The notes: generated from the letters alone by a model not told the origin. DNA of 32,000 nt from Paenibacillus pinihumi DSM 23905 = JCM 16419 (GCF_000422505.1 NZ_AULX01000030.1:61328-93327), one strand, 5' to 3'. Shown: positions 10,701 to 23,994, counted from the stretch's first letter. Program-made: numbers and translations.

Positions 10701-13700
10701 TTCCAAGATAACATGGGCATTTGTTCCGCCCTGCCCGATCGAGTTTACAGAAGCCCTGAGAGGATGACCTGTTTCCGGGAATTTTTCGGCTTCGCTCCCC
10801 ACATAAAATGGACTGTCGATTAAATCGATATCCAGGTTAGGGACATTAAAATTCAATGTCGGAGGAATCGTTTTATTCTTTAACATAAGAACGGTTTTTA
10901 CAAAGCCTGCAATACCTGAAGTACAATCAAGATGACCAATATTAGTTTTAATAGAACCTATGGCACAAAAAGCTTTCTCCTTCGTATCAAAAGCCTTTGT
11001 GGCAGCTTCTATTTCTATTAAATCGCCCATCCTTGTTCCGGCTCCATGGGTTTCCATGTAACTTATTGAAGTCGCAGGTACCCCGCTTACCTTTAAAGCA
11101 TCCTGGATAACATCAGCTATTCCTTCTACACTGGGAGCATAATAACCGACTTTTCGGTCACCGTCATTATTGACAGCAGATCCTTTGATTACCGCATAAA
11201 TATGATCTTTATCAGCCAGTGCATCCTCTAGCCGTTTCAGGACGACAGCTGCCGAGCCTTTGCCAGGGACAAAACCATCCGCGTCATTATCAAAGGTTTT
11301 ACACTGGCCGTCTTTTGAATAAATCATCCCATCTTCAAAAAGATACCCGCTCTTATCCGGCAGAGGAACGATCGTTACACTTCCCGCCAGAGCCATAGAG
11401 CATTCTGAACGCAATAAGGATTGAGCTGCCGTATGGATCGCGACAAGAGATGTCGAACAGGCGGTATACAAAGATACAGCTGGACCTTTTAAGCCAAGTT
11501 TATAGGCAACAAGCTGGCTCATATAATCTTTATTGCTATAGAGCTCTGTAGTAAATAAACCGATTCTCTCCGCCATTTCCGAAAACATGGATGTCTTTTC
11601 CCAAAACAAATTCGGGGAAGCGCTCGCAAAGATCCCGATAGGTTTAGGATATTTCCCGGGATCATACCCTGCATCTTCAAGTGCTTCCCAGGCAACTTCA
11701 TGAAAAACCCTTACCTGAGGGTCCATGACCGCAGCTTCATTCGGTTTATAACCAAAAAACTCCGGATCGAATAAATCAATCCCTTTCATAACTCCCTGAG
11801 ATTTCACATAGTTCGGATTATTCTGCAGCTTTCTGTCAACGTTTGCCTTATCAAGCTCCTCTTCAGAAAGGACAGAAATTGAATCGACTCCGTCAGCGAG
11901 GTTGTTCCATATTTCATAAATATCAGAGCCGGCAGGAAGACGGCCGGACATCCCTACCACGGCAATGTCATGGGCAGTTCCTTCTTTCGGCTCCATTCGT
12001 TCGCTGATGATAGCGGTTTCAATTCCACCTGAAATCAATTGAGCTTGTTTTCGAATCGTCGTATACTGGAACAACTCTGCGATTTTAATTTTTTTGTCGA
12101 ATGTACTATTGATCTTATTATTCAGCTGAATAAGAATGATCGAATTACCGCCCACATCAAAGAAATTTTCCTCTAGCCCGATCATTTCCCTTCCGAGGAG
12201 TTCTTTCCATATACGCAAAAGTTCTTTTTCGTGATTCGTGTTAGCATCTCTTGAAGGAGTCTCCTGTAATCGGACAGCGTTCATGTTATTTAATTTTTTG
12301 TAATCAATCTTCCCGTTTAAGGTATACGGAATCTCCTCGATCTGCTTAAATTCCGCAGGAATCATATAGTCCGGTAAGTAGCGTGCCAGTTGCTCCCTCA
12401 CGTAAGCGGGGCTCAAGCTGCTATCGGCTTTATAGAAGGCAAGAATTCGCTTCCTGCTGTCATCATATTCATTAACAACGGCAATGCCTTCCTCGATCCC
12501 CCGGATATTACGCAAGTTTGATTCGATCTCTCCCAGCTCGATCCGATATCCCCGGATACTAACCTGATTGTCAATTCGGCCCATGAAATCAATATCGCCA
12601 CCGGGAAGCCATCTGGCCTGATCCCCGGTTCTATAAAGGGTTTTGCCTGCTATAATCTCCGTCGTGAATTTTTCTGCTGTGAGCTCCGGGAGATTTAAAT
12701 AGCCACTGGCGACTCCGAGCCCGGCTATGCATAGCTCTCCGGGAACTCCGATCGGTGCAAGTCTTGATTCGGCATCCACAATAAAAATTTGTGCATTTTC
12801 TATTGGTTTTCCAATAGGGATTTTAGTAGTACCGGCGTCCAAATCTGCACAATTATAAAATGCAGCACAAACGGTGGCTTCCGTCGGTCCGTAAGTATTA
12901 TAAACAGAACAGTCTTGCTTCAATCGGTCGATATATTCATTCTTGAGCACATCGCCGCCGCTGATAAACAGTCTGACATCTTTCAACTTTTCCAGCTTGT
13001 TCAGTTCATTCAGCATCAGCGGCGAGCAGGAAACAATGGATACTTTCCGTTCTCGTATAAACTTATGAACCTCATCGATATCAAGGATATTATCATGATT
13101 CAGTATGGCTACTTCCCCCCCGTTTACCAGGGCAGGGTAGATCTCCTCAATACTCGCATCAAAAGCCAGAGATGCCTGCTGGAGAACAACATCTTCTTTA
13201 TTAACAGCAAACTCTTTCGAGAAACAATTGACATAGGATGCTGCATTTTTATGGCTTACCATAACTCCTTTTGGATTCCCCGAGGTTCCTGAGGTATAGA
13301 TGATGTAACAGCAGCTATTAATATCAATATCAACTTCAATACTGGAATTATCTAAAGCAGTTGAATTTTCAATATGCGTAAGATTAATTATTTTCCCGTC
13401 ATAAACTTTTGTGACCTTTTGAGCCGTTGAACCTGCAGCTATCACGCAGGAAGCCCGGCAGTCATTTAAGATATAACGGAGTCTCTCTTCCGAGGTCAAC
13501 ATATCGATGGGTACATAACAGCATCCAATTTTTTGGACTCCCAACATGGCGGCAACAGCCTTTACTGACTTCGGAAGGAATAAGGCAATTGTACTGCCGG
13601 GAGTAATGCCGCTTTCAGTTAAAGCCCGTGCAATATTATCGCTCATGGAATTCAGTGTTTTATAATCTATCTTCTCATCAGCTGTACTTATAGCCATTTT

Positions 13701-15125
13701 TGCAGGGTAAGTATGAGCGGCCTCTTCAAATTGCCTAACTAGAGGGATAGAGGCATCCAAAGTAAGATCCTCTTTATTAAACTCTTCAAGAATGATCCTC
13801 TTCTCCTGAAGACTGAGCAGACTCAGTTCATCGCAAGTCCCGTTAAGATTAGCCGCAACCTGCTCCAGCATAAATAAAAAGTCTTTGCTCAATCTTTGGA
13901 TAATAACCGGATCTATTGCAGCCTTATCATATGAGAAGGTTATTTCCATAGAGTCAAATAATTCAATTCCGACAATCAAGGGATAATTGGAAAATTCCCA
14001 AGAGGCGAAGGATTTCAGCTGTAATTCGCTATTACTCAACTTCTTCATGTCCACCGGATAATTTTCAATGACCATAATGGAATTGAATAGTTCCCCGCTC
14101 GTATTGCCGTATTTCTTAATATCGACTAATGGCGTCGTACATACTTCCTGCTGTTCACCGATAGCCCGTGTTATCTCTTCAATAACATCCAGTATTTTTT
14201 TATTTGCTGAAAAGTCTATTCTTAACGGAAGCGTATTGATAAAAATTCCGATTGTATCCTCAAAAGATTGTCCGTCTATCCCTCTTGAAGACAGAGTATA
14301 ACCGAGGGTGACTTCCTTATTGTTTTGATACGTCTTCAGCATAGCTCCATACACAAAATAGCAGAAGGATGAAAGGAGGACGTTCCTTTCTTTTAAAAGA
14401 CTTTCGATTCTCTTTTGCAGCTTACTTTCGATGACCATCTTTTCTTCCATATATAATGCTGCTTTATTATCACGGGGGGTAATGAACCAGTTTAATTCAA
14501 CATCATGCCCCTTTAAGTAATTGGTCCAATAGGCCTCTTCTTTCTTTTTATCTTTTCTTACCAGATTTTTTATATAGTCCTGATAAGTCCCCTTGCCTGC
14601 CGGAAATTTAATATTTTCAGGTTCAAGACCGTAAAAACGGAAAAAATCCTTTAACAGGATATATGTACTCCAGCCATCATACAAAATATGGTGATGAGTG
14701 ATAAGCATAAAATGTTTATGCTCATCAAAGGTACACAAGGTTACCCGGAAAGGGACCTCATCCAAAGAAAAAGTATCATTTCTGTCTTTATCCAGAATTT
14801 CAGCATACTCCCGCTCACGATTGTCCGGAGATACCGTGGAGAGGTCAAAAAAACGGATGGGAAGGAGATGCTTCTTCAGGTTAATCTGAATCGGATTATT
14901 CAAACCTTCCCAGCGGAAAAGTGTTCTAAGCATCTCATGTTTCTCAACGATCTTATTCCACACTTTATTAAAAGTGACAGGAGTCATCCGGCCTTCCAAT
15001 TCTATAGCCAATTGGGCATGATATATTTGAGAGGCAGGCTCCATAAGATAGTGAAAAAGCATCCCCTCCTGCACAGGTGTAAGCCGCAATATATTTTCCA
15101 CATTATTCTTATTAAGAATTCTCAT
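7743..15125 (-). CDS. Hybrid NRPS-PKS megasynthase, C-A(Lys-like)-T-KS-(vestigial AT)-KR-ACP, 2460 aa
   Basis: Boundaries: ATG at 15123-15125 with a G-rich SD (aagggggt) ~9 nt upstream; stop TAG at 7743-7745. C: HHHILYDGWS (14673-14696). A: YIIYTSGTSGNPKGV, hand-read code DAESIGTVCK (residues between nt 12309 and 13160). T: GGNSI (Ser at 12141-12143). KS: C1223 in TACSTS (11457-11459), METHGAGT, NIGHLD. AT-like region lacks the nucleophile (GYGDNE at 10125-10142). KR: GVYLVVGGLGGVG ... YSSANIY (~8316-8873). ACP: MGASSL (Ser at 7962-7964). Basic C-terminal tail KDRKQRRLQKRKG. Confidence 0.93.
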   Translation of the reverse strand: MRILNKNNVENILRLTPVQEGMLFHYLMEPASQIYHAQLAIELEGRMTPVTFNKVWNKIVEKHEMLRTLFRWEGLNNPIQINLKKHLLPIRFFDLSTVSPDNREREYAEILDKDRNDTFSLDEVPFRVTLCTFDEHKHFMLITHHHILYDGWSTYILLKDFFRFYGLEPENIKFPAGKGTYQDYIKNLVRKDKKKEEAYWTNYLKGHDVELNWFITPRDNKAALYMEEKMVIESKLQKRIESLLKERNVLLSSFCYFVYGAMLKTYQNNKEVTLGYTLSSRGIDGQSFEDTIGIFINTLPLRIDFSANKKILDVIEEITRAIGEQQEVCTTPLVDIKKYGNTSGELFNSIMVIENYPVDMKKLSNSELQLKSFASWEFSNYPLIVGIELFDSMEITFSYDKAAIDPVIIQRLSKDFLFMLEQVAANLNGTCDELSLLSLQEKRIILEEFNKEDLTLDASIPLVRQFEEAAHTYPAKMAISTADEKIDYKTLNSMSDNIARALTESGITPGSTIALFLPKSVKAVAAMLGVQKIGCCYVPIDMLTSEERLRYILNDCRASCVIAAGSTAQKVTKVYDGKIINLTHIENSTALDNSSIEVDIDINSCCYIIYTSGTSGNPKGVMVSHKNAASYVNCFSKEFAVNKEDVVLQQASLAFDASIEEIYPALVNGGEVAILNHDNILDIDEVHKFIRERKVSIVSCSPLMLNELNKLEKLKDVRLFISGGDVLKNEYIDRLKQDCSVYNTYGPTEATVCAAFYNCADLDAGTTKIPIGKPIENAQIFIVDAESRLAPIGVPGELCIAGLGVASGYLNLPELTAEKFTTEIIAGKTLYRTGDQARWLPGGDIDFMGRIDNQVSIRGYRIELGEIESNLRNIRGIEEGIAVVNEYDDSRKRILAFYKADSSLSPAYVREQLARYLPDYMIPAEFKQIEEIPYTLNGKIDYKKLNNMNAVRLQETPSRDANTNHEKELLRIWKELLGREMIGLEENFFDVGGNSIILIQLNNKINSTFDKKIKIAELFQYTTIRKQAQLISGGIETAIISERMEPKEGTAHDIAVVGMSGRLPAGSDIYEIWNNLADGVDSISVLSEEELDKANVDRKLQNNPNYVKSQGVMKGIDLFDPEFFGYKPNEAAVMDPQVRVFHEVAWEALEDAGYDPGKYPKPIGIFASASPNLFWEKTSMFSEMAERIGLFTTELYSNKDYMSQLVAYKLGLKGPAVSLYTACSTSLVAIHTAAQSLLRSECSMALAGSVTIVPLPDKSGYLFEDGMIYSKDGQCKTFDNDADGFVPGKGSAAVVLKRLEDALADKDHIYAVIKGSAVNNDGDRKVGYYAPSVEGIADVIQDALKVSGVPATSISYMETHGAGTRMGDLIEIEAATKAFDTKEKAFCAIGSIKTNIGHLDCTSGIAGFVKTVLMLKNKTIPPTLNFNVPNLDIDLIDSPFYVGSEAEKFPETGHPLRASVNSIGQGGTNAHVILEEAPSYERRPSQRSNHLILVSAMTEQSLNELTEKYIQFFKANSGLALPDIAYTLQVGRKHFKYRRYVSCRDLSEGIEQLEKTQQAGVADESNGEDAIYFVFGNDTDGVFFKNIDCFFAEPLLKKELEQNILIGDSVSFPGLSEYFAARISNAGEVANEEFNRVIDTIFLYSYAKMFISLGIKPAGVAGYGDNEIIALCLAGVLSFENALEMMKEKGRGLEGYAGDLAVPSIPCWSHKSRNWFSRENDQLPVSFLLQEKGESPVEEFVEWVNQNKKGRAGIMCFAGESVEQEGVTCLNPLETEKDAFNNITGFLWSIGYAVDWEYFCSTEQVSRLSLPTYSFKKESFWLESKTSQALPVENDDSRKSLPDWFYVPVWKQSLLLESTPEKINSGVLVLCEENDFSQGLIEYLNHAGYKVFVVFPGKSFAPAKENSYVLNLGCRSQYKELVTEITRDGNQLDYIINCFGLAAEDNSRQRAAGDINETYFLATVYMTDAIQECNLQNHVKLMNLATNLHRISGGESRVPEKSLVIGASMVAAQEINNLSFQCLELDEKALGNNDSSYRYIEQELRQNSENPMTAYRNEIRWELDYQPLKLEESVKRNGALKEQGVYLVVGGLGGVGFHLCRYLLENYKATVIITGRTELSSDTGESSRDAGAARKAERLKELQSLGSECIYVAAGVHKSEEMEKVFKIIDEKYSSLDGVIFAPTSSDSSLFRSLNELTPDDVNLQFDPKIEGVQVLAELIKTRKPDFCLLMSSISSIVGGLGFAAYSSANIYLDYFAGTRDSSETRWISVNWEGWDIENKETRFDYNNASVTDYFMSIAEGIEAMERVLALRNIPQVAVSSVPLSGRLKKWVYKKDLALNNAASEKQLTLQTMSLREIEESLGAIVRDYFGFAEIKENATFFDMGASSLDVIQLCLNIRKIFNISLTIVELFRYSSVLALAEYLYKLNAPKGADDVKITSEEELSKIKDRKQRRLQKRKG
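9681..10424 (-). other. Vestigial / inactive acyltransferase-like region inside the NRPS-PKS (candidate docking scaffold for a trans-acting AT)
   Basis: Aligned by eye to the intact AT of the neighbouring megasynthase. FPGQGAEY becomes FGNDTDGV. GYSFGE becomes GYGDNE, so the active-site Ser is replaced by Gly (10125-10142). The downstream Arg-containing helix is not conserved, and the region is ~70 aa shorter. Confidence 0.7.
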
Positions 15126-15218
15126 TTATTAAACCCCCTTCTCAAATGAATAAAAATGCTGAGTTGCTCATAGCTCGATCCTGGTCATGATCCTGGAGTC
15201 TTCATAAGATCCCTGCGT

Positions 15219-15350
15219 TCATAACTGTTCTTGTATGTATTTTTTGATTGCATCTGCTGTGATATTTCCTACTGTAAACACATAATATCCTCTTGCCCAA
15301 GATGCCTTGTTCCCTTTGGTTGTTTGATCGAGATGCTTATCAAATATTTC
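15219..15350 (-). pseudogene. C-terminal remnant of an IS200/IS605-family tnpA (Y1 transposase)
   Basis: The minus-strand frame reads EIFDKHLDQTTKGNKASWARGYYVFTVGNITADAIKKYIQEQL*. This matches the conserved C-terminus of IS200 TnpA (..FWxRGYxVSTVG..xIxxYIxxQ) as I remember it. An in-frame stop lies immediately upstream (15351-15353), so only ~43 codons survive. Confidence 0.55.
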
Positions 15351-15371
15351 TCAGACATTTATTCCATGGCG

Positions 15372-15623
15372 TCATTCGTATAAACGGGTCTCAATGTAAG
15401 ATAACAAACTGCTCAAAGTTGACAATTTGGTATACTCAAGATTTTCATCTTCAATTTCAAAATTAAATTCGTTCTCAAGTAATACAATGAGTTTAACAAA
15501 AGCAATAGAATTGATACCATAATTAGTTAGTACATCATCTAACTTGATTTCATCCACATCGGTGGTAAGTTCCATGTTTTCTTTCATAATCCTTCTAATC
15601 TTTGCTTCTGTTGATTCTGACAT
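15372..15623 (-). CDS. Free-standing acyl/peptidyl carrier protein (83 aa)
   Basis: MSESTEAKIRR...NYGINSIAFVKLIVLLE carries a carrier-protein helix-II motif with the Ser in INS. I prefer the ATG at 15621-15623, which has GGAGG 5 nt upstream, over the TTG at 15633-15635 used by the ORF track. Confidence 0.8.
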   Translation of the reverse strand: MSESTEAKIRRIMKENMELTTDVDEIKLDDVLTNYGINSIAFVKLIVLLENEFNFEIEDENLEYTKLSTLSSLLSYIETRLYE

Positions 15624-15641
15624 ATATACCTCCAATAAAAT

Positions 15642-15647
15642 ATTATA
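15642..15647 (-). promoter_or_regulatory. Candidate -10 box (perfect TATAAT) upstream of the carrier-protein gene
   Basis: The minus strand reads ...aatacTATAATattttattGGAGGtatatATG. I found no convincing -35 element at 17 nt. AT-rich context makes chance matches likely. Confidence 0.2.
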
Positions 15648-15736
15648 GTATTTCTTTTCATTATATTATGAAATCATCTGATAGCATCTTATGGTGAATG
15701 TATTCCAGAGTGTAATAGTATCTATTATCTGAACGA

Positions 15737-15783
15737 CCCTGCACTAAACGTGCAGGGATTCACCTCTGCGACTGAAAGTCGCA
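15737..15783. repeat. Two adjacent perfect inverted repeats (hairpins) in the radical SAM / ACP intergenic region
   Basis: Hairpin 1 at 15737-15757: ccctgcac/taaac/gtgcaggg, 8-bp stem and 5-nt loop. Hairpin 2 at 15767-15783: tgcgac/tgaaa/gtcgca, 6-bp stem and 5-nt loop. The string actgaaa recurs at 15821 and 15832. Function is unknown; the hairpins may be subterminal structures of a decayed IS200/IS605 end. Confidence 0.6.
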
Positions 15784-15845
15784 ATTCCGGCTAAAGTTCC
15801 GACGAAATCGTTATGACTACACTGAAAGTGCACTGAAATGTCCTC

Positions 15846-15899
15846 TTGCTTAAGCAAATGGAAGTCTGCAAAATAGCCAGATGCCCAAGATGCTGTGCT
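15846..15899 (-). pseudogene. Second, more degenerate IS200/IS605 tnpA-like remnant
   Basis: The minus-strand frame reads STASWASGYFADFHLLKQ. It shares the nucleotide 12-mer tgcccaagatgc (15882-15893) with the first remnant (15294-15305) and the peptide pattern ASWAxGY(F/Y). It lies 2 nt after the radical SAM stop codon. Confidence 0.3.
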
Positions 15900-15901
15900 C
15901 C

Positions 15902-17524
15902 TTACAGTAAAACCTTACTTAGGTATTCAGGATTTAGTTTGATCAGGCTTCGAATCAGCGAGTATCGTTTGTTTTGCATTTTACTCATCATTTCCGTCAA
16001 ATACTGGTGATTCAATTCATCATCAATGATTCCTGCAAACAAATTTCTATCGTTAGTGGTTTGAGACATGTTCAACAGCTTGCTATAACAGCTGTAATTC
16101 TTTTTGTTCAAATCAAGGATGAATGCATCAATATAATTCACGAATTCCTGAACCAACAGCTTTGCCGGAATATGTTCATCTCCATCGTAATAATTAAAAA
16201 ACACTGTTAGAAAACACTTGTATCTTGAAAGAGGCTCAAAGATATTTCCAAACATCTTCCTTTTTTCCAAGAAATAATTCTCCAAAAACTCATAAAGATT
16301 TCCAATTCTTTCGTCGGCAAAACGATACCCGATTGCTTCGTCATATTTCGCATCTTCTAGCAATCCATCTTTCTTTGTAGCTTCATACAGTCCCGCTCCT
16401 TTTGAAAGATGCAGCTTACTCAAATGGCCAAAACCACCCAATAAGTTATACTGATTCATAAATTCCATATTCTCATATAATTTGTCGTAGGTGGAATATG
16501 GGTTGAAATTAATGAATCCCATATGGTAATTTATATCGTTCTTTTCGAGATCGTCCAGTAGTTTTCTTGAATCATCGACTGTTACCCCTTTGTTATACAG
16601 CTTCAAATCGTCATCGTTGCCAGCCTCTATCCCAGCAAATACACCAACTAATCCAGCTTTTTTCAGTAGGCCCAGATAGTTATCCGTTGCTTTTTTATAC
16701 ATATCCGCCCGTAAATCCAGCATAAAAAAAATCTTCAAATCCCTGCGCAAGATTTCTTCAGCAAGTTTTACTCCTCTATCTAATGTAGGGATTTCAAAAC
16801 TGCCATCGGCAATCGAGAAGTTAATGATACCAAGATCTCTATTTATCTCTTCCATCTCGTCGACGACCTTTTTGATGCTCCTTCCCCTCCAACCACGAGT
16901 TTCGCCGCCCTTCCAATATTCAGGAATAATGCAAAAGCTGCAATTCATATAACATCCTCTGGAGGTTGACAAATAAGCTTGTTTTAATTTATGTTGCACG
17001 ATAAGGTCCCTACTTGGAAAGGGAAGGATGTCCAGATCAGGAATCAATGTCGCCTGCTCATTCATGATGATTTCACCATCATGATTCCGATACGTCAGCC
17101 CTTTTACCCCGGATGGATCTCCGTCGCAATTTAGGCACTCAAGCAATTCAAAGGTTGTAATTTCGGCTTCTCTTTCTATGGCGTAATCGATATACTCCAG
17201 CTCAGACAGTATTTCACACGAATAATTCAACACAGCTGCTCCTCCAATAAATAGCGTGGTATTCGGCAGCCTGTCATGAAAAACATCAAGCAATTTATAG
17301 CCGTACTTTTTCGTAGGTTCATTAATGCATAATCCCAGAAAATCCGGACGGTAATTAACAATATCATCAATATAGTCCTTATCGACGGTATCATCATCCT
17401 CTTTTATAATGGGGGTAGAGATTTTAACCATGTAACCCTTTTCTCTCAGATAGGATGCAAGGAAACATATTTCCACTTCTTCAGGTTCACCCACAGCACT
17501 TAACAAGACTTTGTTTTTTTTCAT
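15902..17524 (-). CDS. B12 (cobalamin)-binding radical SAM enzyme, class B-like (putative methyltransferase), 540 aa
   Basis: Radical SAM cluster motif CYMNCSFC (CxxxCxxC; C191/C195/C198) at nt 16931-16954. It is preceded by a ~170-aa N-terminal Rossmann-like domain of the kind found in B12-binding radical SAM proteins. SD AAGGAGA lies 9 nt before the ATG at 17522-17524. Confidence 0.85.
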   Translation of the reverse strand: MKKNKVLLSAVGEPEEVEICFLASYLREKGYMVKISTPIIKEDDDTVDKDYIDDIVNYRPDFLGLCINEPTKKYGYKLLDVFHDRLPNTTLFIGGAAVLNYSCEILSELEYIDYAIEREAEITTFELLECLNCDGDPSGVKGLTYRNHDGEIIMNEQATLIPDLDILPFPSRDLIVQHKLKQAYLSTSRGCYMNCSFCIIPEYWKGGETRGWRGRSIKKVVDEMEEINRDLGIINFSIADGSFEIPTLDRGVKLAEEILRRDLKIFFMLDLRADMYKKATDNYLGLLKKAGLVGVFAGIEAGNDDDLKLYNKGVTVDDSRKLLDDLEKNDINYHMGFINFNPYSTYDKLYENMEFMNQYNLLGGFGHLSKLHLSKGAGLYEATKKDGLLEDAKYDEAIGYRFADERIGNLYEFLENYFLEKRKMFGNIFEPLSRYKCFLTVFFNYYDGDEHIPAKLLVQEFVNYIDAFILDLNKKNYSCYSKLLNMSQTTNDRNLFAGIIDDELNHQYLTEMMSKMQNKRYSLIRSLIKLNPEYLSKVLL

Positions 17525-17596
17525 ATATTATTCTCCTTTTTTCATTTTTTTGTAAAAGAAAGAACCGCTTCGGAACTATAGCGGCCAAAGGCGTAA

Positions 17597-17893
17597 AAGT
17601 TATCCTTATACAAAGCCTACAAAGCTTCGTCGCGTCTAGCCAAGGTAGACTGGGCTTTGCAGATACGAGAACTGTTACATGTCCATTATGCACAAGCCAA
17701 GCGAATCCGGCTCGTAATGGACAACTTAAACATGGATACGATTGCATCACTTTATGAGGCATTTCTTCCTTCTGAGGTACTCAGCCTGGCCAAACGCTTG
17801 GAGATCCACTATATATCCAAGCATGACAGTTCAGCAAATATTGCCGAGATCGAACTCAGTGCACTTACGCTGCAATGCTTGACTCGGTCATAG
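17597..17893 (+). pseudogene. IS630-family transposase C-terminal remnant
   Basis: The plus-strand frame reads ..KVDWALQIRELLHVHYAQAKRIRLVMDNLNMDTIASLYEAFLPSEVLSLAKRLEIHYISKHDSSANIAEIELSALTLQCLTRS*. This matches the conserved ..VMDNLNTHxxxSLYEAFxPxEAxxLxxRLEFHYTPKHGSWLNMAEIELSxLxRQCL.. block of one IS630 subgroup, from memory. It is N-terminally truncated by a stop at 17594-17596, and the GSWLN motif is degraded to DSSAN. Confidence 0.7.
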
Positions 17894-17966
17894 GACTAGC
17901 TGCTTTCCAGAAATACCTTATACTGAAACCGTTAATGAAAAACAAAGTATGCTGACCTCTTTAATG

Positions 17967-19865
17967 TTATTCATTAAATTTCTTAAATGACTTTAACATT
18001 TTTTTGAAAATACGCTTTAATACTATAATATCGTCGTCATTATCAACACTATATTCATGCAAATCAGATGCTGAAAAATACAAATCATATTCAGCCAGAG
18101 TTAATTTTTTTTCAACCTGATTTGCATAAATTGAAAAGCACTCATGCTTTCTTGATTTAGGAGTATCTGTAGAAAATTCTGAATGGTTTGTTAAAACAAT
18201 TCTATGCCCGTTTATGTACATAATCTTAATTCTTTTCCTTAAGGCAAAATTCAAAGCTTCTTCAATTGTATTAATTATAGGTTCTCCCTTATCATTTAAG
18301 GATGTATTACATATAATGGGTACCCCGGTAGAAGCATAGTATTTTTTCATACATAAATACAATTTCTCATTCATTTTTTCGTTTAAAGTTTGAACTCTTG
18401 CCGTTTGATCCAAATGAATAATCGCAGGGACAATATCTTTTTTTTCATCTCTCAACACAAAATTATTAAGCATGTATGGGGATTCAAAAGAATCTTTAAA
18501 CCAATTTTCCAATTGTTCATTAAGAATTATTGGGGCCACAGGCCTCCACCATTGTCTATTTTTATATAAATTAAGTAAATCCTTTGAACGCTCCTCTGTA
18601 GCAGTAGCTAATATACTGCGATGTCCCAAAGCACGTGGTCCAATTTCTGCCCTTCCATCAAACCAAATAATGGGGCCATTTGATATATCATCTGCAAAGT
18701 AATCTATTGTATTTTCAATAGAAACAATAAATTTTTTATATTGTTCTTTATGTAATACATTTATATCATCATCCCTATCTCCATAATAGGCATGTTCTAA
18801 TTTGAAATTAATTCTATTGCAATATTTATAAAAATAATACAATCCCATACCTATAGCTTGTCCGCCATCATTAGCAGATGGTACAATTAATTGTTTTTTA
18901 AATCCATATTTATGCATTAAATGAGTGTTAGTTGGACAGTTTAATGCGTATCCGCCTGATAAAGAAATATTTACTTTTGAAGGTTCTAATTTAAATCTCA
19001 TTATAGCTTGGTCTATCGTATTATCAATTTGTTTTATAGAAATTTCTTGAATTATTTTAGCTGCCATGCTAATTTTATTTTCATCTTCTGTAAAACGCTC
19101 ATCAAAAAAATTATACTTATTACCAATATCTTTTTGAGTATAGGAATTAACATGTTGCAAAATTTTATTTATTAATTTTGCAGGGCTATCTTGGAGTGTC
19201 TTATAGATTTCCAACAAATCATCATCATTATAAATTGTTTCTAACGTTGTGCACTGCGTAGCGGTCGCTAATGCCATCAAAGTTCCTTCTTCTAATCCCG
19301 TTTTACTTGCTAATTCTCCCCAATATGGACCTGGTGATGGAACATGAAAAAATTGAATTTTACCTTTTGAACTAAATGCTCCTATATAATCATTTCTTTT
19401 TTCAAAATCTCTATTATCAAGAAGAAAATCAGCTCCACCATCAACTGCTATAGCCAATATGTCTTCATTATAAAAAATATCAGTATCTATCATCAATGAT
19501 GAAAATAAATGCGCCAAAGAATGGTAGGTATACTCCGGGCCTAAATCTTTATCATAATATTTATTTACATTTGATATTATAGGGGTACCAATTATATCTA
19601 CTATATCGTCTATACATAGATCATAGTCACTTAATAACATATTAATAAATTCTATGGCACTTTCTTTATCGTAAAATGATATGGAATGATGTTTGTATCC
19701 TGTGATACGTTCAAATTCCCAATGATGGACCAATTCTAAATTTTCATTTTGTTTTTTCCATAAAGACATATTATGATCATGCCTTAAACAACTTTCATAG
19801 TTGTTCAAATATTTATTAACACAACTATAAATTGATATATAGTATCCATCTTTTAAATTATTCAT
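17967..19865 (-). CDS. Carbamoyltransferase (NodU/CmcH/TobZ family), 632 aa
   Basis: Family motifs: SLSGGYALNCPTN, GPRALGHRSILA, PIICNTSLN. I moved the start to the ATG at 19863-19865 (MNNLKDGYYISIY), which follows AGGAGG. The 28-codon upstream extension in the ORF track has no SD and reads like low-complexity noise. Confidence 0.88.
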   Translation of the reverse strand: MNNLKDGYYISIYSCVNKYLNNYESCLRHDHNMSLWKKQNENLELVHHWEFERITGYKHHSISFYDKESAIEFINMLLSDYDLCIDDIVDIIGTPIISNVNKYYDKDLGPEYTYHSLAHLFSSLMIDTDIFYNEDILAIAVDGGADFLLDNRDFEKRNDYIGAFSSKGKIQFFHVPSPGPYWGELASKTGLEEGTLMALATATQCTTLETIYNDDDLLEIYKTLQDSPAKLINKILQHVNSYTQKDIGNKYNFFDERFTEDENKISMAAKIIQEISIKQIDNTIDQAIMRFKLEPSKVNISLSGGYALNCPTNTHLMHKYGFKKQLIVPSANDGGQAIGMGLYYFYKYCNRINFKLEHAYYGDRDDDINVLHKEQYKKFIVSIENTIDYFADDISNGPIIWFDGRAEIGPRALGHRSILATATEERSKDLLNLYKNRQWWRPVAPIILNEQLENWFKDSFESPYMLNNFVLRDEKKDIVPAIIHLDQTARVQTLNEKMNEKLYLCMKKYYASTGVPIICNTSLNDKGEPIINTIEEALNFALRKRIKIMYINGHRIVLTNHSEFSTDTPKSRKHECFSIYANQVEKKLTLAEYDLYFSASDLHEYSVDNDDDIIVLKRIFKKMLKSFKKFNE

Positions 19866-19976
19866 TAATACAAAAACCTCCTGCGATCTTAATTTTAGTA
19901 AAATGGTTATTTTTGTATTCTTTACAAATAAAATTATTAATGTAATCATTTTTCAATTCCACTCATGATAAGGCCA

Positions 19977-21206
19977 TTATAAAGCCTTTCCTTCAAGAAT
20001 CTGATGTAATTTTCGACTAAATAACTGCTGGGGTATCTTTTTGGTTTCCATAACTGATATTGCCATCTTGACTGCTTCTCTAACATTGTTTTCAGAAGGA
20101 AAAATATTCTCAGCCAATATATCCTCATATGTCTTTTTTACTGCATTATAAGGCAGAACTGCTCCATTTTGAAACTCGTTATAATTCGTATTGTAATTTC
20201 TTAAACTAGTTGCGATCTTCAAGCACCTTTCCATAATTGTTAAGTACTCATCATGACTCACAAATAGCATATTCCTTAGCTCATCACACAATTTATAATT
20301 ATTAAATGAATAAGGAACCAACTGGGATGTAATTTTTTTAATCAGAAATTTTAATACGTCTTTAGGCCCTATTTCAATCACATATTTGACATTACAATTC
20401 ATAAGATTCATAACAGATTCCTGCCATCTGACAGGTGACATTAGCTGTTTCGACAAGTTGTCAATCAGAGACTCCGTTCCTTGGTAAGGCTGTGTGTTGT
20501 AATTTGAAATCACTTGGCATTCAGGAAAGCGGTAACGATATCCGCGCAATACAGCCTTCATCTCATCTGCCGCATTAGCCATAAACGGCGAATGAAAAGG
20601 TCCCGACATTTTTAAGGGATAAACAATTGCTCCGCTGCCTTCCAGTGTCCGTGTCAAACTCTTGATCGTATCATTTCTCCCGGAAATTGAGCACTGAGCC
20701 GGTGAATCATAAGCGGATATATATACATCACCACATTCTATATATTCTCTGCATACTTCTTCTACGGTTTTATAATCGATATTTATAACCCATATCATTG
20801 TTCCATCACATGAGGAAATTGTTTCTTTAATAATCCTTCCTCTTTGTTTTACAATTTGAAGTACATCTGAGAACTCGACTACTCCAGCTGCGCACAATGC
20901 CGAATATTCACCCAGGCTGTGTCCAAGGCAGTATGACGGGCTTAAACCTATTTCCTTCTGGAAAACTCTGAATATGGCCATACTGGCAGTCACCAAGGCT
21001 AATTGCGAAATATCTATTTCATTCAACTTATCTGCAGAATCATTTGAAAAGCATATTTCTGCCATATCCATTTTCAATGTATCACTGGCTTCTTCAAAGG
21101 TTTCTCTGGCTATGTCGGAGTTATCGTAAAAACTCTTGGCCATATTCGTGTGTTGAGAACCAACCCCTGGGAAAACCAGTGCAATTTTTGGTTCTAATTT
21201 GTGCAT
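19977..21206 (-). CDS. Free-standing (trans-acting) acyltransferase, FabD-like core plus ~100-aa C-terminal extension, 409 aa
   Basis: Motifs: FPGVGSQ, CLGHSLGEYSALCAAG (GHSxG nucleophile), VKQRGRI (Arg), SGPFHSPFM. SD GAGGAG lies upstream of the ATG at 21204-21206. Confidence 0.88.
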   Translation of the reverse strand: MHKLEPKIALVFPGVGSQHTNMAKSFYDNSDIARETFEEASDTLKMDMAEICFSNDSADKLNEIDISQLALVTASMAIFRVFQKEIGLSPSYCLGHSLGEYSALCAAGVVEFSDVLQIVKQRGRIIKETISSCDGTMIWVINIDYKTVEEVCREYIECGDVYISAYDSPAQCSISGRNDTIKSLTRTLEGSGAIVYPLKMSGPFHSPFMANAADEMKAVLRGYRYRFPECQVISNYNTQPYQGTESLIDNLSKQLMSPVRWQESVMNLMNCNVKYVIEIGPKDVLKFLIKKITSQLVPYSFNNYKLCDELRNMLFVSHDEYLTIMERCLKIATSLRNYNTNYNEFQNGAVLPYNAVKKTYEDILAENIFPSENNVREAVKMAISVMETKKIPQQLFSRKLHQILEGKAL

Positions 21207-22815: not shown

Positions 22816-23994
22816 TCATTTACTCCCGAGCCCGGCCTTTATTTCTGAGCTCCTGTACTTTCTTGCAAAGCTGTTTCCTAGTATCATTTCTATAATTTGA
22901 TTACTACCTTCAATAATTTCAAGTGTCTTGGTATCCCTATAATACCTTGCCACTGGGTGGGACTCATTACAGCCCATTGCTCCAAGGATCTGCACGGCAT
23001 TATCTGAATGCTTGCGCGCTGCCTTAGTAGTAAAATATTTGGCGATTATCACCTTTTCAGCCGAACTTGGATGATGATTTTCCTTATCATGGCATGAGTG
23101 TATACATAAATGGGCTGCGGCTTCATAATCCACTCCCATTTTGGTAATCATCTCTTTTATTGTACTATGGGAGATTAACTTTTCCCCAAAGGTTTTCCTT
23201 TTCAAAACATGGCTGGTGCAGTATTCAAGGCAGCCTCTCATAATACCAAGTGCTGTAAATGCAACACTAATGCGTCCGTAATCCAAAGCATACGGAGCTA
23301 TATGTGATAATGCAAAACCGGGTTTTGCAAGTACGTTTTCCTTGCTTATTTCACAATTATCGAATTCCAGCACTGCTAAAGCACTCGCTTTAAAACCAAT
23401 CATGTTTTTGATTTGAACCACATTCAATCCGGGTGCATTCTTCTCTACGATTACTGCAGTTGCTTTTTCATCTTGTCCGTTCATTTTGCCAAAAACAATG
23501 AATACATCCGCCAAGCCTCCAAAAGTAATCCATCTCTTGGTTCCATTTATGATTATCTTGTCCTCTGTCTCGGTAAATGTAGTAGTAATTCCCTGGATAT
23601 CACTTCCGGCTTCCGGCTCTGTCAATGCAAGAGCCCCTAGCACTTTGCCCTGAGTCATGGAGGGCAGCCATTTCTGTTTCTGCTCTTCCGTTCCCCATTT
23701 GAGTATAGATTTCATAACCATGGTGTGTACATTGAATAAACCGCTTAAAGATGTACTGGCTTTGGCTACTACTTCAGTAAATACACCATATGTGAGATGG
23801 TCCCATCCCTGTCCTCCAAACTCTTCCGGCAAAATTCCGCCCATATATCCAGCTTCTGCGCATTTATCAATAACTTCTCTTGGGATACACTCATTTATTT
23901 CCCATTCCCATGCAAACGGCTGGACATTGGATTGGACGAATTTTCCGAATTCAGTGTATTTTTCTTTTTGTTCTCTTGAAAGCAATCCGATCAT
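22816..23994 (-). CDS. Acyl-CoA dehydrogenase family flavoenzyme (FkbI/ZmaE/ZmaI-type, acting on acyl-ACP), 392 aa
   Basis: ACAD motifs: LTEPEAGSD, and YRDTKTLEIIEGSNQI near the C-terminus. The start overlaps the upstream ACP stop as ATGA (23991-23994). Confidence 0.85.
   Translation of the reverse strand: MIGLLSREQKEKYTEFGKFVQSNVQPFAWEWEINECIPREVIDKCAEAGYMGGILPEEFGGQGWDHLTYGVFTEVVAKASTSLSGLFNVHTMVMKSILKWGTEEQKQKWLPSMTQGKVLGALALTEPEAGSDIQGITTTFTETEDKIIINGTKRWITFGGLADVFIVFGKMNGQDEKATAVIVEKNAPGLNVVQIKNMIGFKASALAVLEFDNCEISKENVLAKPGFALSHIAPYALDYGRISVAFTALGIMRGCLEYCTSHVLKRKTFGEKLISHSTIKEMITKMGVDYEAAAHLCIHSCHDKENHHPSSAEKVIIAKYFTTKAARKHSDNAVQILGAMGCNESHPVARYYRDTKTLEIIEGSNQIIEMILGNSFARKYRSSEIKAGLGSK

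What the first reader, a model, noticed from the sequence alone, without database searches (positions are those of the whole stretch)
15126..17966. B12-radical SAM enzyme + dedicated carrier protein form an IS-bracketed insert in the middle of the cluster
Seen: the radical SAM gene (CxxxCxxC at 16931-16954, with a B12-type N-terminal domain) and a small carrier protein sit between the tailoring genes and the megasynthases. They occupy the only two long intergenic gaps of the cluster. Those gaps hold an IS630 transposase remnant (17597-17893, opposite strand) and two IS200/IS605 tnpA-like remnants (15219-15350, 15846-15899).

Established: class B radical SAM enzymes methylate unactivated carbons (for example Fom3, GenK, PoyC, CysS), and some act on carrier-bound substrates.

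Inference: this pair was recruited into an ancestral cluster by transposition-associated recombination. It may modify a carrier-tethered building block before assembly. I do not recall such a step from zwittermicin-type pathways.
Basis: partly seen in the sequence, partly recalled or inferred. Interest (0 to 1): 0.7.

Follow-up and report, generated by a model that had tools for sequence, protein, structure and literature searches.

The report
Foreign radical-SAM/carrier cassette in antibiotic cluster
A zwittermicin-type antibiotic gene cluster in Paenibacillus pinihumi carries three extra genes (a carbamoyltransferase, a cobalamin-type radical SAM enzyme and a small carrier protein) patched in among dead transposon fragments, at a spot where five sibling clusters carry other genes (kinases in three, acetyltransferases in one, an extra synthetase in one); the insertion is real, but what the enzyme does is still unknown.

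Summary
The 540-aa gene (15902-17524, minus strand) is a class-B-type radical SAM enzyme with CxxxCxxC exactly at 16931-16954. An 83-aa carrier protein follows it. An IS630 remnant, an IS200 TnpA remnant and a 33-nt IS200-like scrap lie in the only three long intergenic gaps of the window.

The inference of insertion is supported and needs widening. Five sibling clusters share the TE-FkbH-ACP-3HCDH-ACP-ACAD-A-AT core at 64-87% protein identity. None has the radical SAM gene, this carrier protein or the carbamoyltransferase within 10 kb of the AT. Between the AT and the next synthetase gene they carry APH kinases (3), GNATs plus a GTPase (1) or an extra NRPS (1). The lineage-specific segment is therefore 15126-19976 and includes the carbamoyltransferase.

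The segment looks mosaic: GC3 is 0.20, 0.41 and 0.31 for its three genes.

The assumed methylation is not supported. The enzyme's family is far closer to the ring-contracting OxsB than to the methylases CysS and TokK. Its nearest homologue is only 38% identical. Its B12 domain has lost family-invariant residues.

The family is nevertheless strongly linked to carrier-protein biosynthesis, and this carrier protein resembles those next to family members.

Verdict: a real, moderately interesting new variant of a known pathway type, chemistry unknown.

The parts
19977..21206 (-). ZmaF-like trans-acyltransferase; last conserved core gene before the variable slot (left flank)
   Evidence: Pfam Acyl_transf_1 E 1.2e-34. 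70-74% identical to the AT of five sibling clusters. 39% identical to the AT of the B. thuringiensis zma cluster. The C-terminus is intact and homology to siblings stops at the stop codon.
17967..19865 (-). TobZ/NodU-type carbamoyltransferase (632 aa from the ATG with an AGGAGG ribosome-binding site); part of the lineage-specific segment
   Evidence: Pfam Carbam_trans_C E 2.8e-52. PDB relatives include a carbamoyltransferase (7xb6), TobZ and GdmN. GC3 is 0.20, the lowest in the window. Absent from all five sibling loci. Closest homologues are 61-68% identical. Of four looked up (62-68%), three are followed by a small ACP.
17621..17893 (+). IS630-family transposase remnant (C-terminal ~87 aa, 5' part deleted), opposite strand, between the carbamoyltransferase and the radical SAM gene
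   Evidence: Pfam DDE_3 E 3.2e-6; NCBIfam IS630 E 2.7e-6, profile positions 199-279 of 299. 70.6% identical to a Paenibacillus sonchi IS630 transposase, E 2e-30. GC 0.47.
15902..17524 (-). Cobalamin-type (class B architecture) radical SAM enzyme, 540 aa, OxsB-like
   Evidence: Nearest homologue is 38% identical. Retains 79 of 93 family-conserved positions but has lost Y68, G118, G120, Y267 and S290, which are invariant in all 37 aligned homologues, and G18, T99 and D245, conserved in 35-36 of them.
16931..16954 (-). CxxxCxxC [4Fe-4S]/SAM motif (C191, C195, C198)
   Evidence: Direct reading and coordinate calculation. The three cysteines are invariant in the family alignment.
15869..15901 (-). 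33-nt IS200-tnpA-like scrap (encodes ASWASGYFA) starting right after the radical SAM stop codon
   Evidence: Direct repeat of 15281-15313, 76% identical. Only 1 of 2000 shuffles reached the score; protein level 4 of 1000. No HMM hit.
15700..15800 (-). Three stable hairpins between the radical SAM gene and the carrier-protein gene (one is an 8-bp stem, CCCTGCAC/GTGCAGGG); function unknown
   Evidence: Folded as ssDNA: -20.3 kcal/mol, z = -5.1, 0 of 200 shuffles as stable. No U-tail terminator. No Rfam match.
15372..15623 (-). Free-standing carrier protein ACP3 (83 aa; ORF extends to 15635 from a TTG)
   Evidence: PP-binding E 9.9e-12; gene call of 83 aa. Serine in GINSI. Best matches are carrier proteins in loci of the same radical SAM family: L005 37% over 79 aa, L068 44% over 70 aa.
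15219..15350 (-). IS200/IS605 TnpA C-terminal remnant, same strand as the genes, between the carrier protein and the megasynthase
   Evidence: Pfam Y1_Tnp E 7.1e-8, profile 80-121 of 121; NCBIfam IS200 E 1.2e-8. 56-57% identical to annotated tnpA genes.
7743..15125 (-). Hybrid NRPS-PKS (C-A-T-KS-KR-ACP, no AT domain); first conserved gene after the variable slot (right flank)
   Evidence: Pfam. 75% and 79% identical to the orthologues in L006 and L007. Homology to siblings resumes at the start codon.

Best explanation
The stretch 15126-19976 is a lineage-specific, mosaic accessory cassette. It sits in the variable slot between the ZmaF-like acyltransferase and the first megasynthase gene of a zwittermicin-type NRPS-PKS cluster in Paenibacillus pinihumi.

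It holds three intact genes, each with its own ribosome-binding site and all on the cluster's strand:
- a very AT-rich TobZ-type carbamoyltransferase;
- a cobalamin-type radical SAM enzyme of an uncharacterised, OxsB-like clade;
- that enzyme's own small carrier protein.

The genes are separated by debris of an IS630 element (Paenibacillus-like) and of IS200/IS605 tnpA. The cassette was therefore stitched together and into place by illegitimate or IS-associated recombination, probably in more than one step. It occupies the position where sibling clusters carry APH kinases or GNAT acetyltransferases.

Shown: the presence and integrity of the genes, their absence from five siblings, the mosaic composition, and the association of the radical SAM clade with carrier-protein pathways.

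Inferred mechanism:
1. The carrier protein is phosphopantetheinylated.
2. It is loaded with a small acyl or aminoacyl unit by one of the cluster's existing loaders: the serine-specific free-standing A domain, the FkbH-like enzyme or the trans-AT.
3. The radical SAM enzyme uses 5'-deoxyadenosyl radical chemistry, with or without cobalamin, to modify an unactivated carbon of the tethered unit. This could be methylation or an OxsB/BchE-like rearrangement.
4. The carbamoyltransferase may add a carbamoyl group.
5. The modified unit or intermediate then enters or decorates the assembly-line product.
For: Insertion:
- Five sibling clusters (L006-L010) share the eight-gene core TE-FkbH-ACP-3HCDH-ACP-ACAD-A-AT at 64-87% protein identity. 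The peptidase-ABC gene is present in L006, L007 and L009 only. The 2460-aa NRPS-PKS has a true orthologue (75-79% identity) only in L006 and L007; the megasynthase after the slot is 33-37% identical in L008-L010. Their slots hold 2 APH, 1 APH, 1 APH, GNATs plus a GTPase, or an extra NRPS. None has a homologue of the three cassette genes.
- Homology to siblings stops at the AT stop codon and resumes at the NRPS start codon.
- IS remnants lie in the only long gaps.
- Mosaic composition: GC3 is 0.20, 0.41 and 0.31 for the cassette genes against 0.35-0.43 for the flanks. The IS630 remnant has GC 0.47.

Enzyme class.

Carrier-protein link:
- Of 31 non-redundant family loci with at least 6 ORFs, 26 carry thiotemplate parts within 6 kb, 15 a free carrier protein and 14 a free A or A-T protein. 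In 8 of 42 loci the carrier protein is directly adjacent.
- In L005 the carrier-protein and radical SAM genes overlap.
- ACP3 is most like these carrier proteins and shares the (I/V)NSI...LENEF-FE-EDE motif.
- Solved relatives CysS and TokK were crystallised with pantetheinylated substrates.

Integrity and context:
- All ORFs are full length. No terminator-like site lies in 15000-20100.
- The free A domain has the same serine-type pocket code as ZmaJ (using a GrsA reference fragment recalled from memory).
Against: - No close relative of the radical SAM gene exists (best 38% identity), so no donor cluster or function can be transferred.
- Its B12 domain is the most divergent of 38 family members. 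GEGE is REAE here, and Y68 is N. Cobalamin use, or activity itself, may be altered or lost.
- The megasynthase pocket codes match those of a sibling without the cassette: DAESIGTVCK against DAESIGSVCK. Nothing shows the assembly line has adapted to a new unit.
- The closest carbamoyltransferase homologues are themselves followed by a carrier protein in 3 of 4 contexts. This offers a different pairing for ACP3.
- The co-variation of enzyme and carrier-protein similarity across loci is not significant (rho 0.46, p 0.18, n 10).
- Only 10 kb either side of the AT was seen in the siblings, so a carbamoyltransferase elsewhere in their clusters is not excluded.
Confidence: 0.6

Rival explanations
1. 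The cassette is passenger DNA in decay. The radical SAM enzyme, and perhaps the whole insert, no longer contributes to the product. It was dragged in with IS activity that removed the ancestral kinase gene, and it persists only because the event is recent.
For: - IS debris lies on every side.
- The radical SAM enzyme has lost family-invariant residues, concentrated in the cobalamin domain: G18E, Y68N, T99L, G118R, G120A. That domain is the most divergent of 38.
- Its relatives are mostly from anaerobes.
- The megasynthase specificity codes are unchanged relative to a sibling.
Against: - All three ORFs are full length with good ribosome-binding sites.
- All 28 strictly invariant family columns, including the three cluster cysteines, are retained. 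So are 79 of 93 conserved positions.
- The model is confidently folded, pLDDT 89.9.
- Two of the deviations (Asn at position 68, a basic residue at the first G of GEGE) are also seen in the active enzyme OxsB.
Confidence: 0.2
2. The carrier protein is the ancestral partner of the carbamoyltransferase, as in the closest homologues of that enzyme. The radical SAM gene alone was later dropped between them, bracketed by the IS630 remnant and the 33-nt IS200-like scrap.
For: - In L091, L092 and L093 the carbamoyltransferase homologues (62-68% identical) are immediately followed by carrier proteins of 82, 98 and 75 aa.
- Those carrier proteins are only 34% identical to each other, while ACP3 is 38% identical to the L091 one. 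Low identity therefore does not exclude orthology.
- The radical SAM gene is the unit directly flanked by IS630 and IS200-like fragments.
Against: - ACP3 aligns better and over its full length with carrier proteins of the radical SAM family loci: 58 bits and 36-44% identity, against 31-39 bits and 18-28%.
- It shares their NS-type serine motif.
- Carrier protein adjacent to a family radical SAM gene recurs in 8 independent loci.
- ACP3's GC3 (0.31) is not closer to the carbamoyltransferase (0.20) than to the radical SAM gene (0.41).
Confidence: 0.15
3. The trio is ancestral to this cluster family and was replaced independently in the siblings.
For: The slot content differs among siblings, so replacement events do occur there.
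Against: - It would need the trio to be lost in every sibling lineage seen.
- The two closest siblings (75-79% identity in the megasynthase) both carry APH.
- The clearly supported IS remnants (IS630, IS200 TnpA) and the strong compositional heterogeneity are in P. pinihumi; the only hint in a sibling slot is a sub-threshold transposase-HTH match in the L009 gap.
- The genuine zma cluster region examined also lacks the trio.
Confidence: 0.05

Closest known systems
Zwittermicin A (zma) cluster of Bacillus cereus / B. thuringiensis (here pBMB431 of strain HD-1)
   Same: The window's core genes are homologous to it:
- ZmaN/FkbH-like 61%
- the two carrier proteins 60%
- 3-hydroxyacyl-CoA dehydrogenase 58%
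- acyl-CoA dehydrogenase 53% (to the ZmaI-position gene)
- ZmaJ 50%, with the same serine pocket code
- peptidase-ABC fusion 46.5%
- AT 39%
- hybrid NRPS-PKS 35%

A resistance-type GNAT sits next to the AT in zma, as APH or GNAT genes do in the siblings.
   Different: - Gene order differs.
- Only one acyl-CoA dehydrogenase is present here, against two in zma.
- There is no GNAT or APH in the window.
- No radical SAM gene, third carrier protein or TobZ-type carbamoyltransferase was found in the 64 kb of pBMB431 examined.
OxsB (oxetanocin A biosynthesis; PDB 5UL2-5UL4)
   Same: It is the closest solved relative by sequence (E 5.8e-24; family profile E 7e-45) and by fold (Foldseek E 1.9e-26, TMq 0.66). 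It shares the Rossmann cobalamin domain, the radical SAM barrel and a C-terminal helical bundle. Asn68 aligns with the lower-axial Asn186 of OxsB, and the first glycine of GEGE is a basic residue in both.
   Different: - OxsB has an extra N-terminal domain (744 aa against 540 aa).
- By published accounts it acts on a free deoxyadenosine phosphate together with an HD-domain partner. No HD-domain gene was seen in the window among the annotated ORFs, and a carrier protein sits beside this enzyme instead.
- Identity is only about 20%.
CysS (cystobactamid) and TokK/ThnK (carbapenem): class B radical SAM methylases acting on pantetheine- or carrier-tethered substrates
   Same: Same overall architecture (Foldseek E about 1e-18 to 1e-19). 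Both were crystallised with pantetheinylated substrates. They are the best precedent for a cobalamin radical SAM enzyme working on a thiotemplate-bound unit.
   Different: Much weaker sequence relationship (family profile E 2e-17 and 1.7e-16). The SCYVWN segment that holds TokK's lower-axial Trp76 is not conserved here. Methylation by this enzyme is untested.
TobZ/NodU-type O-carbamoyltransferases
   Same: The neighbouring 632-aa gene matches Carbam_trans_C (E 2.8e-52) and the solved structures of a carbamoyltransferase (7xb6), TobZ and GdmN.
   Different: The N-terminal domain matches only weakly. Of four looked-up members of its own clade, three (62-68% identical) are directly followed by small carrier proteins in uncharacterised BtrH-, glycosyltransferase- or PKS-containing clusters.
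IS630 and IS200/IS605 insertion sequences
   Same: Protein-level homology of the remnants to the transposases of both families.
   Different: Only C-terminal fragments remain (87 aa, about 42 aa and about 11 aa). No intact element, no matched pair and no demonstrated ends, so this is not a transposon.

Membership tests
Cobalamin-dependent (class B) radical SAM enzymes | CxxxCxxC motif binding the [4Fe-4S] cluster that cleaves SAM | tested here: met
   C191, C195 and C198 at 16931-16954. Pfam Radical_SAM E 5.4e-14. The cysteines are invariant in the family alignment.
Cobalamin-dependent (class B) radical SAM enzymes | N-terminal Rossmann-type cobalamin-binding domain | tested here: met
   The AlphaFold model has five beta-alpha units in residues 1-135. 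Top fold matches are OxsB, TokK, CysS and TsrM. Caveats: Pfam PF02310 scores only 27.2 bits against a 32.1 cut-off, and the conserved GEGE motif reads REAE.
Cobalamin-dependent (class B) radical SAM enzymes | Actual binding and use of cobalamin | not testable with these tools
   Needs purified protein. Losses of family-conserved residues in this domain (G18E, Y68N, T99L, G118R, G120A) make it an open question.
Class B radical SAM C-methyltransferases (Fom3, GenK, PoyC, CysS, TokK type) | Methyl transfer from methylcobalamin to an unactivated carbon | not testable with these tools
   Sequence gives no support. Matches to methylase models are far below their cut-offs. The family profile matches CysS and TokK at E about 1e-17, against 7e-45 for OxsB.
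OxsB-type ring-contracting enzymes | Extra N-terminal domain and an HD-domain phosphohydrolase partner (OxsA) encoded alongside | tested here: not met
   The protein is 540 aa against 744 aa, and the alignment starts at OxsB residue about 141. No HD-domain family was found among the window ORFs scanned.
Zwittermicin-type NRPS-PKS cluster | Gene sets for hydroxymalonyl-ACP (FkbH-like, ACP, 3HCDH, ACAD) and aminomalonyl-ACP (Ser-specific A, ACP), a ZmaF-like trans-AT, and a ClbP-like peptidase fused to an ABC transporter | tested here: met
   Pfam annotation. tblastn against the annotated zma cluster of pBMB431 gives 39-61% identity for each. Exception: one acyl-CoA dehydrogenase here instead of two.
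Zwittermicin-type NRPS-PKS cluster | ZmaR-like GNAT self-resistance gene | tested here: not met
   No GNAT or APH in the 32-kb window. Siblings and zma have one next to the AT.
Acyl/peptidyl carrier protein | Four-helix PP-binding domain with the phosphopantetheine-accepting serine | tested here: met
   PF00550 E 9.9e-12. The serine in GINSI aligns with the serine of 16 other carrier proteins. Modification by a PPTase is not testable here.
Composite transposon / IS-bounded mobile unit | Two copies of the same IS (or functional ends) flanking the cargo | tested here: not met
   The flanking fragments are from different families (IS630, IS200/IS605) and are truncated to 11-87 codons. No long inverted or direct repeat brackets the segment apart from the 33-nt scrap.

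The most novel reading that the evidence does not exclude
The radical SAM enzyme and its carrier protein may represent an uncharacterised clade of OxsB-like cobalamin radical SAM enzymes. These would work on carrier-protein-tethered substrates and carry out something other than methylation, such as a skeletal rearrangement, ring contraction or C-C bond formation. In P. pinihumi that would create a new building block for a zwittermicin-type antibiotic. The Asn at the OxsB lower-axial position, unique within the family, would then mark a switch in cobalamin chemistry.
Probability: 0.15. Interest if true: 0.75.

Novelty: new variant of a known kind. Interest (0 to 1): 0.45.

Why it matters
- It gives a clean natural experiment. 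Near-identical zwittermicin-type clusters differ only in one slot: kinase, acetyltransferase, or carbamoyltransferase plus radical SAM enzyme plus carrier protein. Comparing the products of P. pinihumi and P. amylolyticus should reveal directly what the cassette does.
- It points to a sizeable, uncharacterised clade of cobalamin-type radical SAM enzymes. They are tied to carrier-protein biosynthesis in anaerobic Firmicutes, and their closest characterised relative is not a methylase.
- It documents how IS debris marks the stepwise assembly of accessory genes in a biosynthetic cluster.

Tried and rejected
- Rfam scan of 15000-20100: only chance-level hits.
- Terminator scan: none; promoter-like sites are not enriched.
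- Literature searches (zwittermicin + radical SAM; cobalamin radical SAM + ACP + polyketide; zwittermicin + aminomalonyl + carbamoyltransferase): nothing describing such a step.
- Global alignment of the two IS200-bearing gaps was uninformative; a local alignment with shuffles was used instead.
- Remnants of the sibling APH genes in the window: none. A putative APH pseudogene in the L007 gap was not confirmed.
- A transposase helix-turn-helix in the L009 gap is only a sub-threshold hint, E 0.003.
- Plasmid database: only distant radical SAM relatives.
- The fragmentary proteins in the same 90% clusters are the same sequence with homopolymer frameshifts from another assembly, so they are useless for selection analysis.
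- No conserved third partner gene was found around family members.
- The radical SAM genes near the carbamoyltransferase homologues are unrelated to this enzyme.
- Co-variation of enzyme and carrier-protein similarity is positive but not significant.
- The lower-axial residue argument is kept only as a lead. TokK's Trp76 aligns two positions away from OxsB's Asn186 in the profile alignment.

Full report
**Source and layout.** The window comes from Paenibacillus pinihumi. The radical SAM protein, AT, A domain and NRPS-PKS are exact matches to WP_028560599, WP_028560600, WP_036709312 and WP_028560597. All genes run on the minus strand. Pfam gives this order:
- C domain (30422-31888)
- ClbP-like peptidase fused to an ABC transporter
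- type II thioesterase
- FkbH-like HAD enzyme
- ACP
- 3-hydroxyacyl-CoA dehydrogenase
- ACP
- acyl-CoA dehydrogenase
- free-standing A domain
- trans-AT (19977-21206)
- carbamoyltransferase (17967-19865)
- B12-type radical SAM enzyme (15902-17524)
- small carrier protein (15372-15623)
- C-A-T-KS-KR-ACP hybrid (7743-15125)
- KS-AT-KR-ACP-C-A-T hybrid

tblastn against the annotated zwittermicin A cluster on B. thuringiensis HD-1 plasmid pBMB431 gives 39-61% identity for the precursor, AT, ZmaJ and peptidase-ABC genes. So 'zwittermicin-type' is correct.

**Checking the observation.** The CxxxCxxC motif is at 16931-16954, exactly as stated. The B12-binding Pfam match is sub-threshold (27.2 against 32.1 bits). 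However, an AlphaFold model built on 38 homologues is confident (pLDDT 89.9). It shows a five-stranded Rossmann domain, a radical SAM barrel and a helical bundle. Its best PDB matches are all cobalamin radical SAM enzymes.

The carrier protein matches PP-binding at E 9.9e-12 and has the serine in GINSI.

The IS630 fragment (about 17621-17893, + strand) is supported by Pfam and NCBIfam at E about 3e-6. It is also 70.6% identical to an annotated IS630 transposase of Paenibacillus sonchi. The IS200 TnpA fragment at 15219-15350 scores E 7e-8 and ends at the natural C-terminus. The second 'IS200' piece has no HMM support. It is a 33-nt repeat of the first, with 1 of 2000 shuffles as good, and it starts directly after the radical SAM stop codon.

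There are three long gaps (246, about 270 and 442 nt), not two. Every other intergenic distance is at most about 110 nt.

**Is it an insert?** A scan of one genome per species with the AT found Paenibacillus amylolyticus Lu_Sv_028 (L006). The protein database gave four more sibling clusters: L007-L010, including Anaerocolumna cellulosilytica.

- All five siblings share the eight-gene core TE-FkbH-ACP-3HCDH-ACP-ACAD-A-AT in the same order, at 64-87% protein identity. The peptidase-ABC gene is present in L006, L007 and L009 (73-77% identity).
- The 2460-aa NRPS-PKS has a true orthologue only in L006 and L007 (75% and 79% identity). In L008-L010 the megasynthase after the slot is only 33-37% identical.
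- Between the AT and the next synthetase gene they carry: two tandem APH kinases (L006), one APH (L007, L010), an RsgA-like GTPase plus two GNATs (L008), or an 840-nt gap plus an extra NRPS (L009).
- None has a homologue of the carbamoyltransferase, the radical SAM enzyme or the third carrier protein within 10 kb of the AT. The window has no APH.
- Homology to the siblings stops at the AT stop codon and resumes at the NRPS start codon.

But the lineage-specific segment is 15126-19976 and includes the carbamoyltransferase, and the site is a general variable slot.

**Mosaic origin.** GC3 is 0.20 for the carbamoyltransferase, 0.41 for the radical SAM gene and 0.31 for the carrier protein, against 0.35 for the AT and 0.43 for the NRPS-PKS. 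The IS630 remnant has GC 0.47.

The carbamoyltransferase has relatives at 61-68% identity, including one in Anaerocolumna jejuensis. The radical SAM enzyme's best relative is only 38% identical. The two genes therefore probably came from different sources. The Paenibacillus-like IS630 fragment between them points to at least one event inside a Paenibacillus host. The fragments are from two unrelated IS families, truncated to 11-87 codons, and also separate the inserted genes from each other. This is a patchwork with IS debris, not a composite transposon.

**What is the radical SAM enzyme?**
- By sequence, its closest solved relative is OxsB: E 5.8e-24 for the protein and 7e-45 for a profile of 38 family members. 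The methylases trail far behind: QCMT/MgmA 1e-18, CysS 2e-17, TokK 1.7e-16. Foldseek agrees.
- The best NCBIfam models are BchE and HpnJ, all far below their cut-offs. C-methylation is thus an assumption, not a finding.
- The protein keeps all strictly invariant family columns and 79 of 93 highly conserved ones. It has lost Y68 (now N), G118 and G120 (GEGE now REAE), Y267 and S290, which are invariant in all 37 aligned homologues, and G18, T99 and D245, conserved in 35-36 of them.
- Its B12 domain is the most divergent of the 38.
- N68 aligns with OxsB Asn186. A recent review describes that residue as part of the hydrophilic lower-axial environment typical of non-methylating members (PMC12931638; alignment). 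In the profile alignment TokK's Trp76 falls two positions away, so this is only a lead.

**Does it work with a carrier protein?** A metagenome scan with the family alignment returned 80 loci. I annotated them with phmmer and jackhmmer, using the window's own domains as queries.
- Of 42 non-redundant loci, 8 have a free-standing carrier protein directly adjacent to the enzyme, and 26 have some carrier domain within 6 kb.
- Of the 31 loci with at least six ORFs, 26 have thiotemplate components, 15 a free carrier protein and 14 a free A or A-T protein.
- In Wukongibacter (L005) a 95-aa carrier-protein gene overlaps the start of a family member.
- The closest homologue, P0001, lies between an NRPS and a trans-AT/KS.
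- ACP3 is most similar to carrier proteins from these loci: L005 37% over 79 aa, L068 44% over 70 aa. It shares their (I/V)NSI and LENEF-FE-EDE motifs.
- The solved relatives CysS and TokK were crystallised with pantetheinylated substrates.

**A complication.** Of the four carbamoyltransferase homologues whose contexts were looked up (62-68% identical), three are each followed directly by a small carrier protein (L091, L092, L093). ACP3 could therefore be the carbamoyltransferase's old partner, with the radical SAM gene inserted between them. Those carrier proteins are only 34% identical to one another, so low identity does not exclude this. Still, ACP3 matches them less well (18-28% over the full alignment) than it matches the radical-SAM-linked ones. 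I keep this as a rival at about 0.15.

**Integration into the pathway.** Using a GrsA reference fragment recalled from memory, the free A domain has the serine code DVWHFSLVDK in the window and in both close siblings. The ZmaJ gene of B. thuringiensis reads DVWHFSLIDK. The first NRPS A domain reads DAESIGTVCK here and DAESIGSVCK in L006. The assembly line therefore shows no adaptation to a new unit. That fits a recent add-on that tailors an existing intermediate, or a passenger.
- There is no terminator-like site across the cassette.
- Three strong hairpins lie between the radical SAM and carrier-protein genes (z = -5.1). They have no U tail and no Rfam match, and remain unexplained.

**Verdict.** The insertion inference is supported, with wider boundaries. 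The methylation idea is unsupported. The most likely reading (confidence 0.6) is a mosaic, lineage-specific cassette. Its radical SAM enzyme and cognate carrier protein would modify a tethered small unit by radical chemistry of unknown outcome, with a separately acquired carbamoyltransferase beside them. Rivals:
- passenger DNA in decay (0.2);
- carbamoyltransferase-carrier protein pairing with the radical SAM gene as the sole later insert (0.15);
- the trio as the ancestral state (0.05).

It is a new variant of a known pathway type, of moderate interest (0.45). The interest would rise sharply if the enzyme proves to do OxsB-like, non-methylating chemistry on a carrier-bound substrate.

Noticed in passing
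L002:2-5341 (ENA ERZ2916260 NODE_3233): An NRPS module whose adenylation domain is interrupted. Between the N-terminal A region and the A3 motif YTSGSTGTPKG lie a radical SAM core (CPYQCLYC, Pfam aa 301-464) and then a B12-binding domain (aa 636-747). A QueC/PP-loop-like stretch sits before the T domain. The next genes are the closest homologue of the window's radical SAM enzyme, a trans-AT and a KS. A radical SAM domain embedded in an A domain looks unusual.
   Followed up: partly
L006:11405-13625, L007:11742-12815, L010:11289-12362, L008:11647-15210; window 15126-19976: The slot after the ZmaF-like AT holds APH kinases (71% identical across three siblings) or GNAT acetyltransferases. In the genuine zma cluster a GNAT also sits next to the AT (L096:4871-5998). 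These look like alternative self-resistance genes. P. pinihumi has none in the window, so its self-protection is unexplained.
   Followed up: partly
L091:10001-12257, L092:279-2690, L093:8001-10260: The window carbamoyltransferase belongs to a clade. Three of four looked-up members (62-68% identical) are directly followed by a small carrier protein. They lie in uncharacterised clusters with BtrH_N proteins, glycosyltransferases, A domains or a PKS. This suggests carbamoylation of carrier-tethered substrates.
   Followed up: partly
window 17967-19865: The carbamoyltransferase gene has GC 0.29 and GC3 0.20, far below every neighbour. Its N-terminal (Kae1-like) domain matches Pfam only weakly.
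   Followed up: partly
window 15700-15800 (minus strand): Three very stable hairpins lie between the radical SAM and carrier-protein genes (-20.3 kcal/mol, z -5.1). There is no U tail and no Rfam family. They could be IS200/IS605 end structures or an mRNA processing or stability element.
   Followed up: partly
window 22816-23994: This cluster family has a single acyl-CoA dehydrogenase, where zwittermicin has two. The window gene is 53% identical to the ZmaI-position gene and 36% to the ZmaE-position gene. One enzyme may therefore serve both the hydroxymalonyl- and aminomalonyl-ACP routes.
   Followed up: no
L004 (Paenibacillus sp. M1) and L005 (Wukongibacter sp. M2B1): Other family members sit in large clusters with several radical SAM paralogues, type II KS/CLF-like genes, ACP, FabA-like dehydratase and 2-hydroxyacyl-CoA dehydratase (HGD-D/BcrAD) genes. 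These are reminiscent of ladderane-type lipid clusters. About a third of family loci carry two or more paralogues.
   Followed up: no
L012:2373-7644 and L067: A more distant carbamoyltransferase (39-41% identical) lies directly beside radical SAM family members in two independent metagenome contigs. The carbamoyltransferase-radical SAM adjacency therefore recurs, although rarely.
   Followed up: partly
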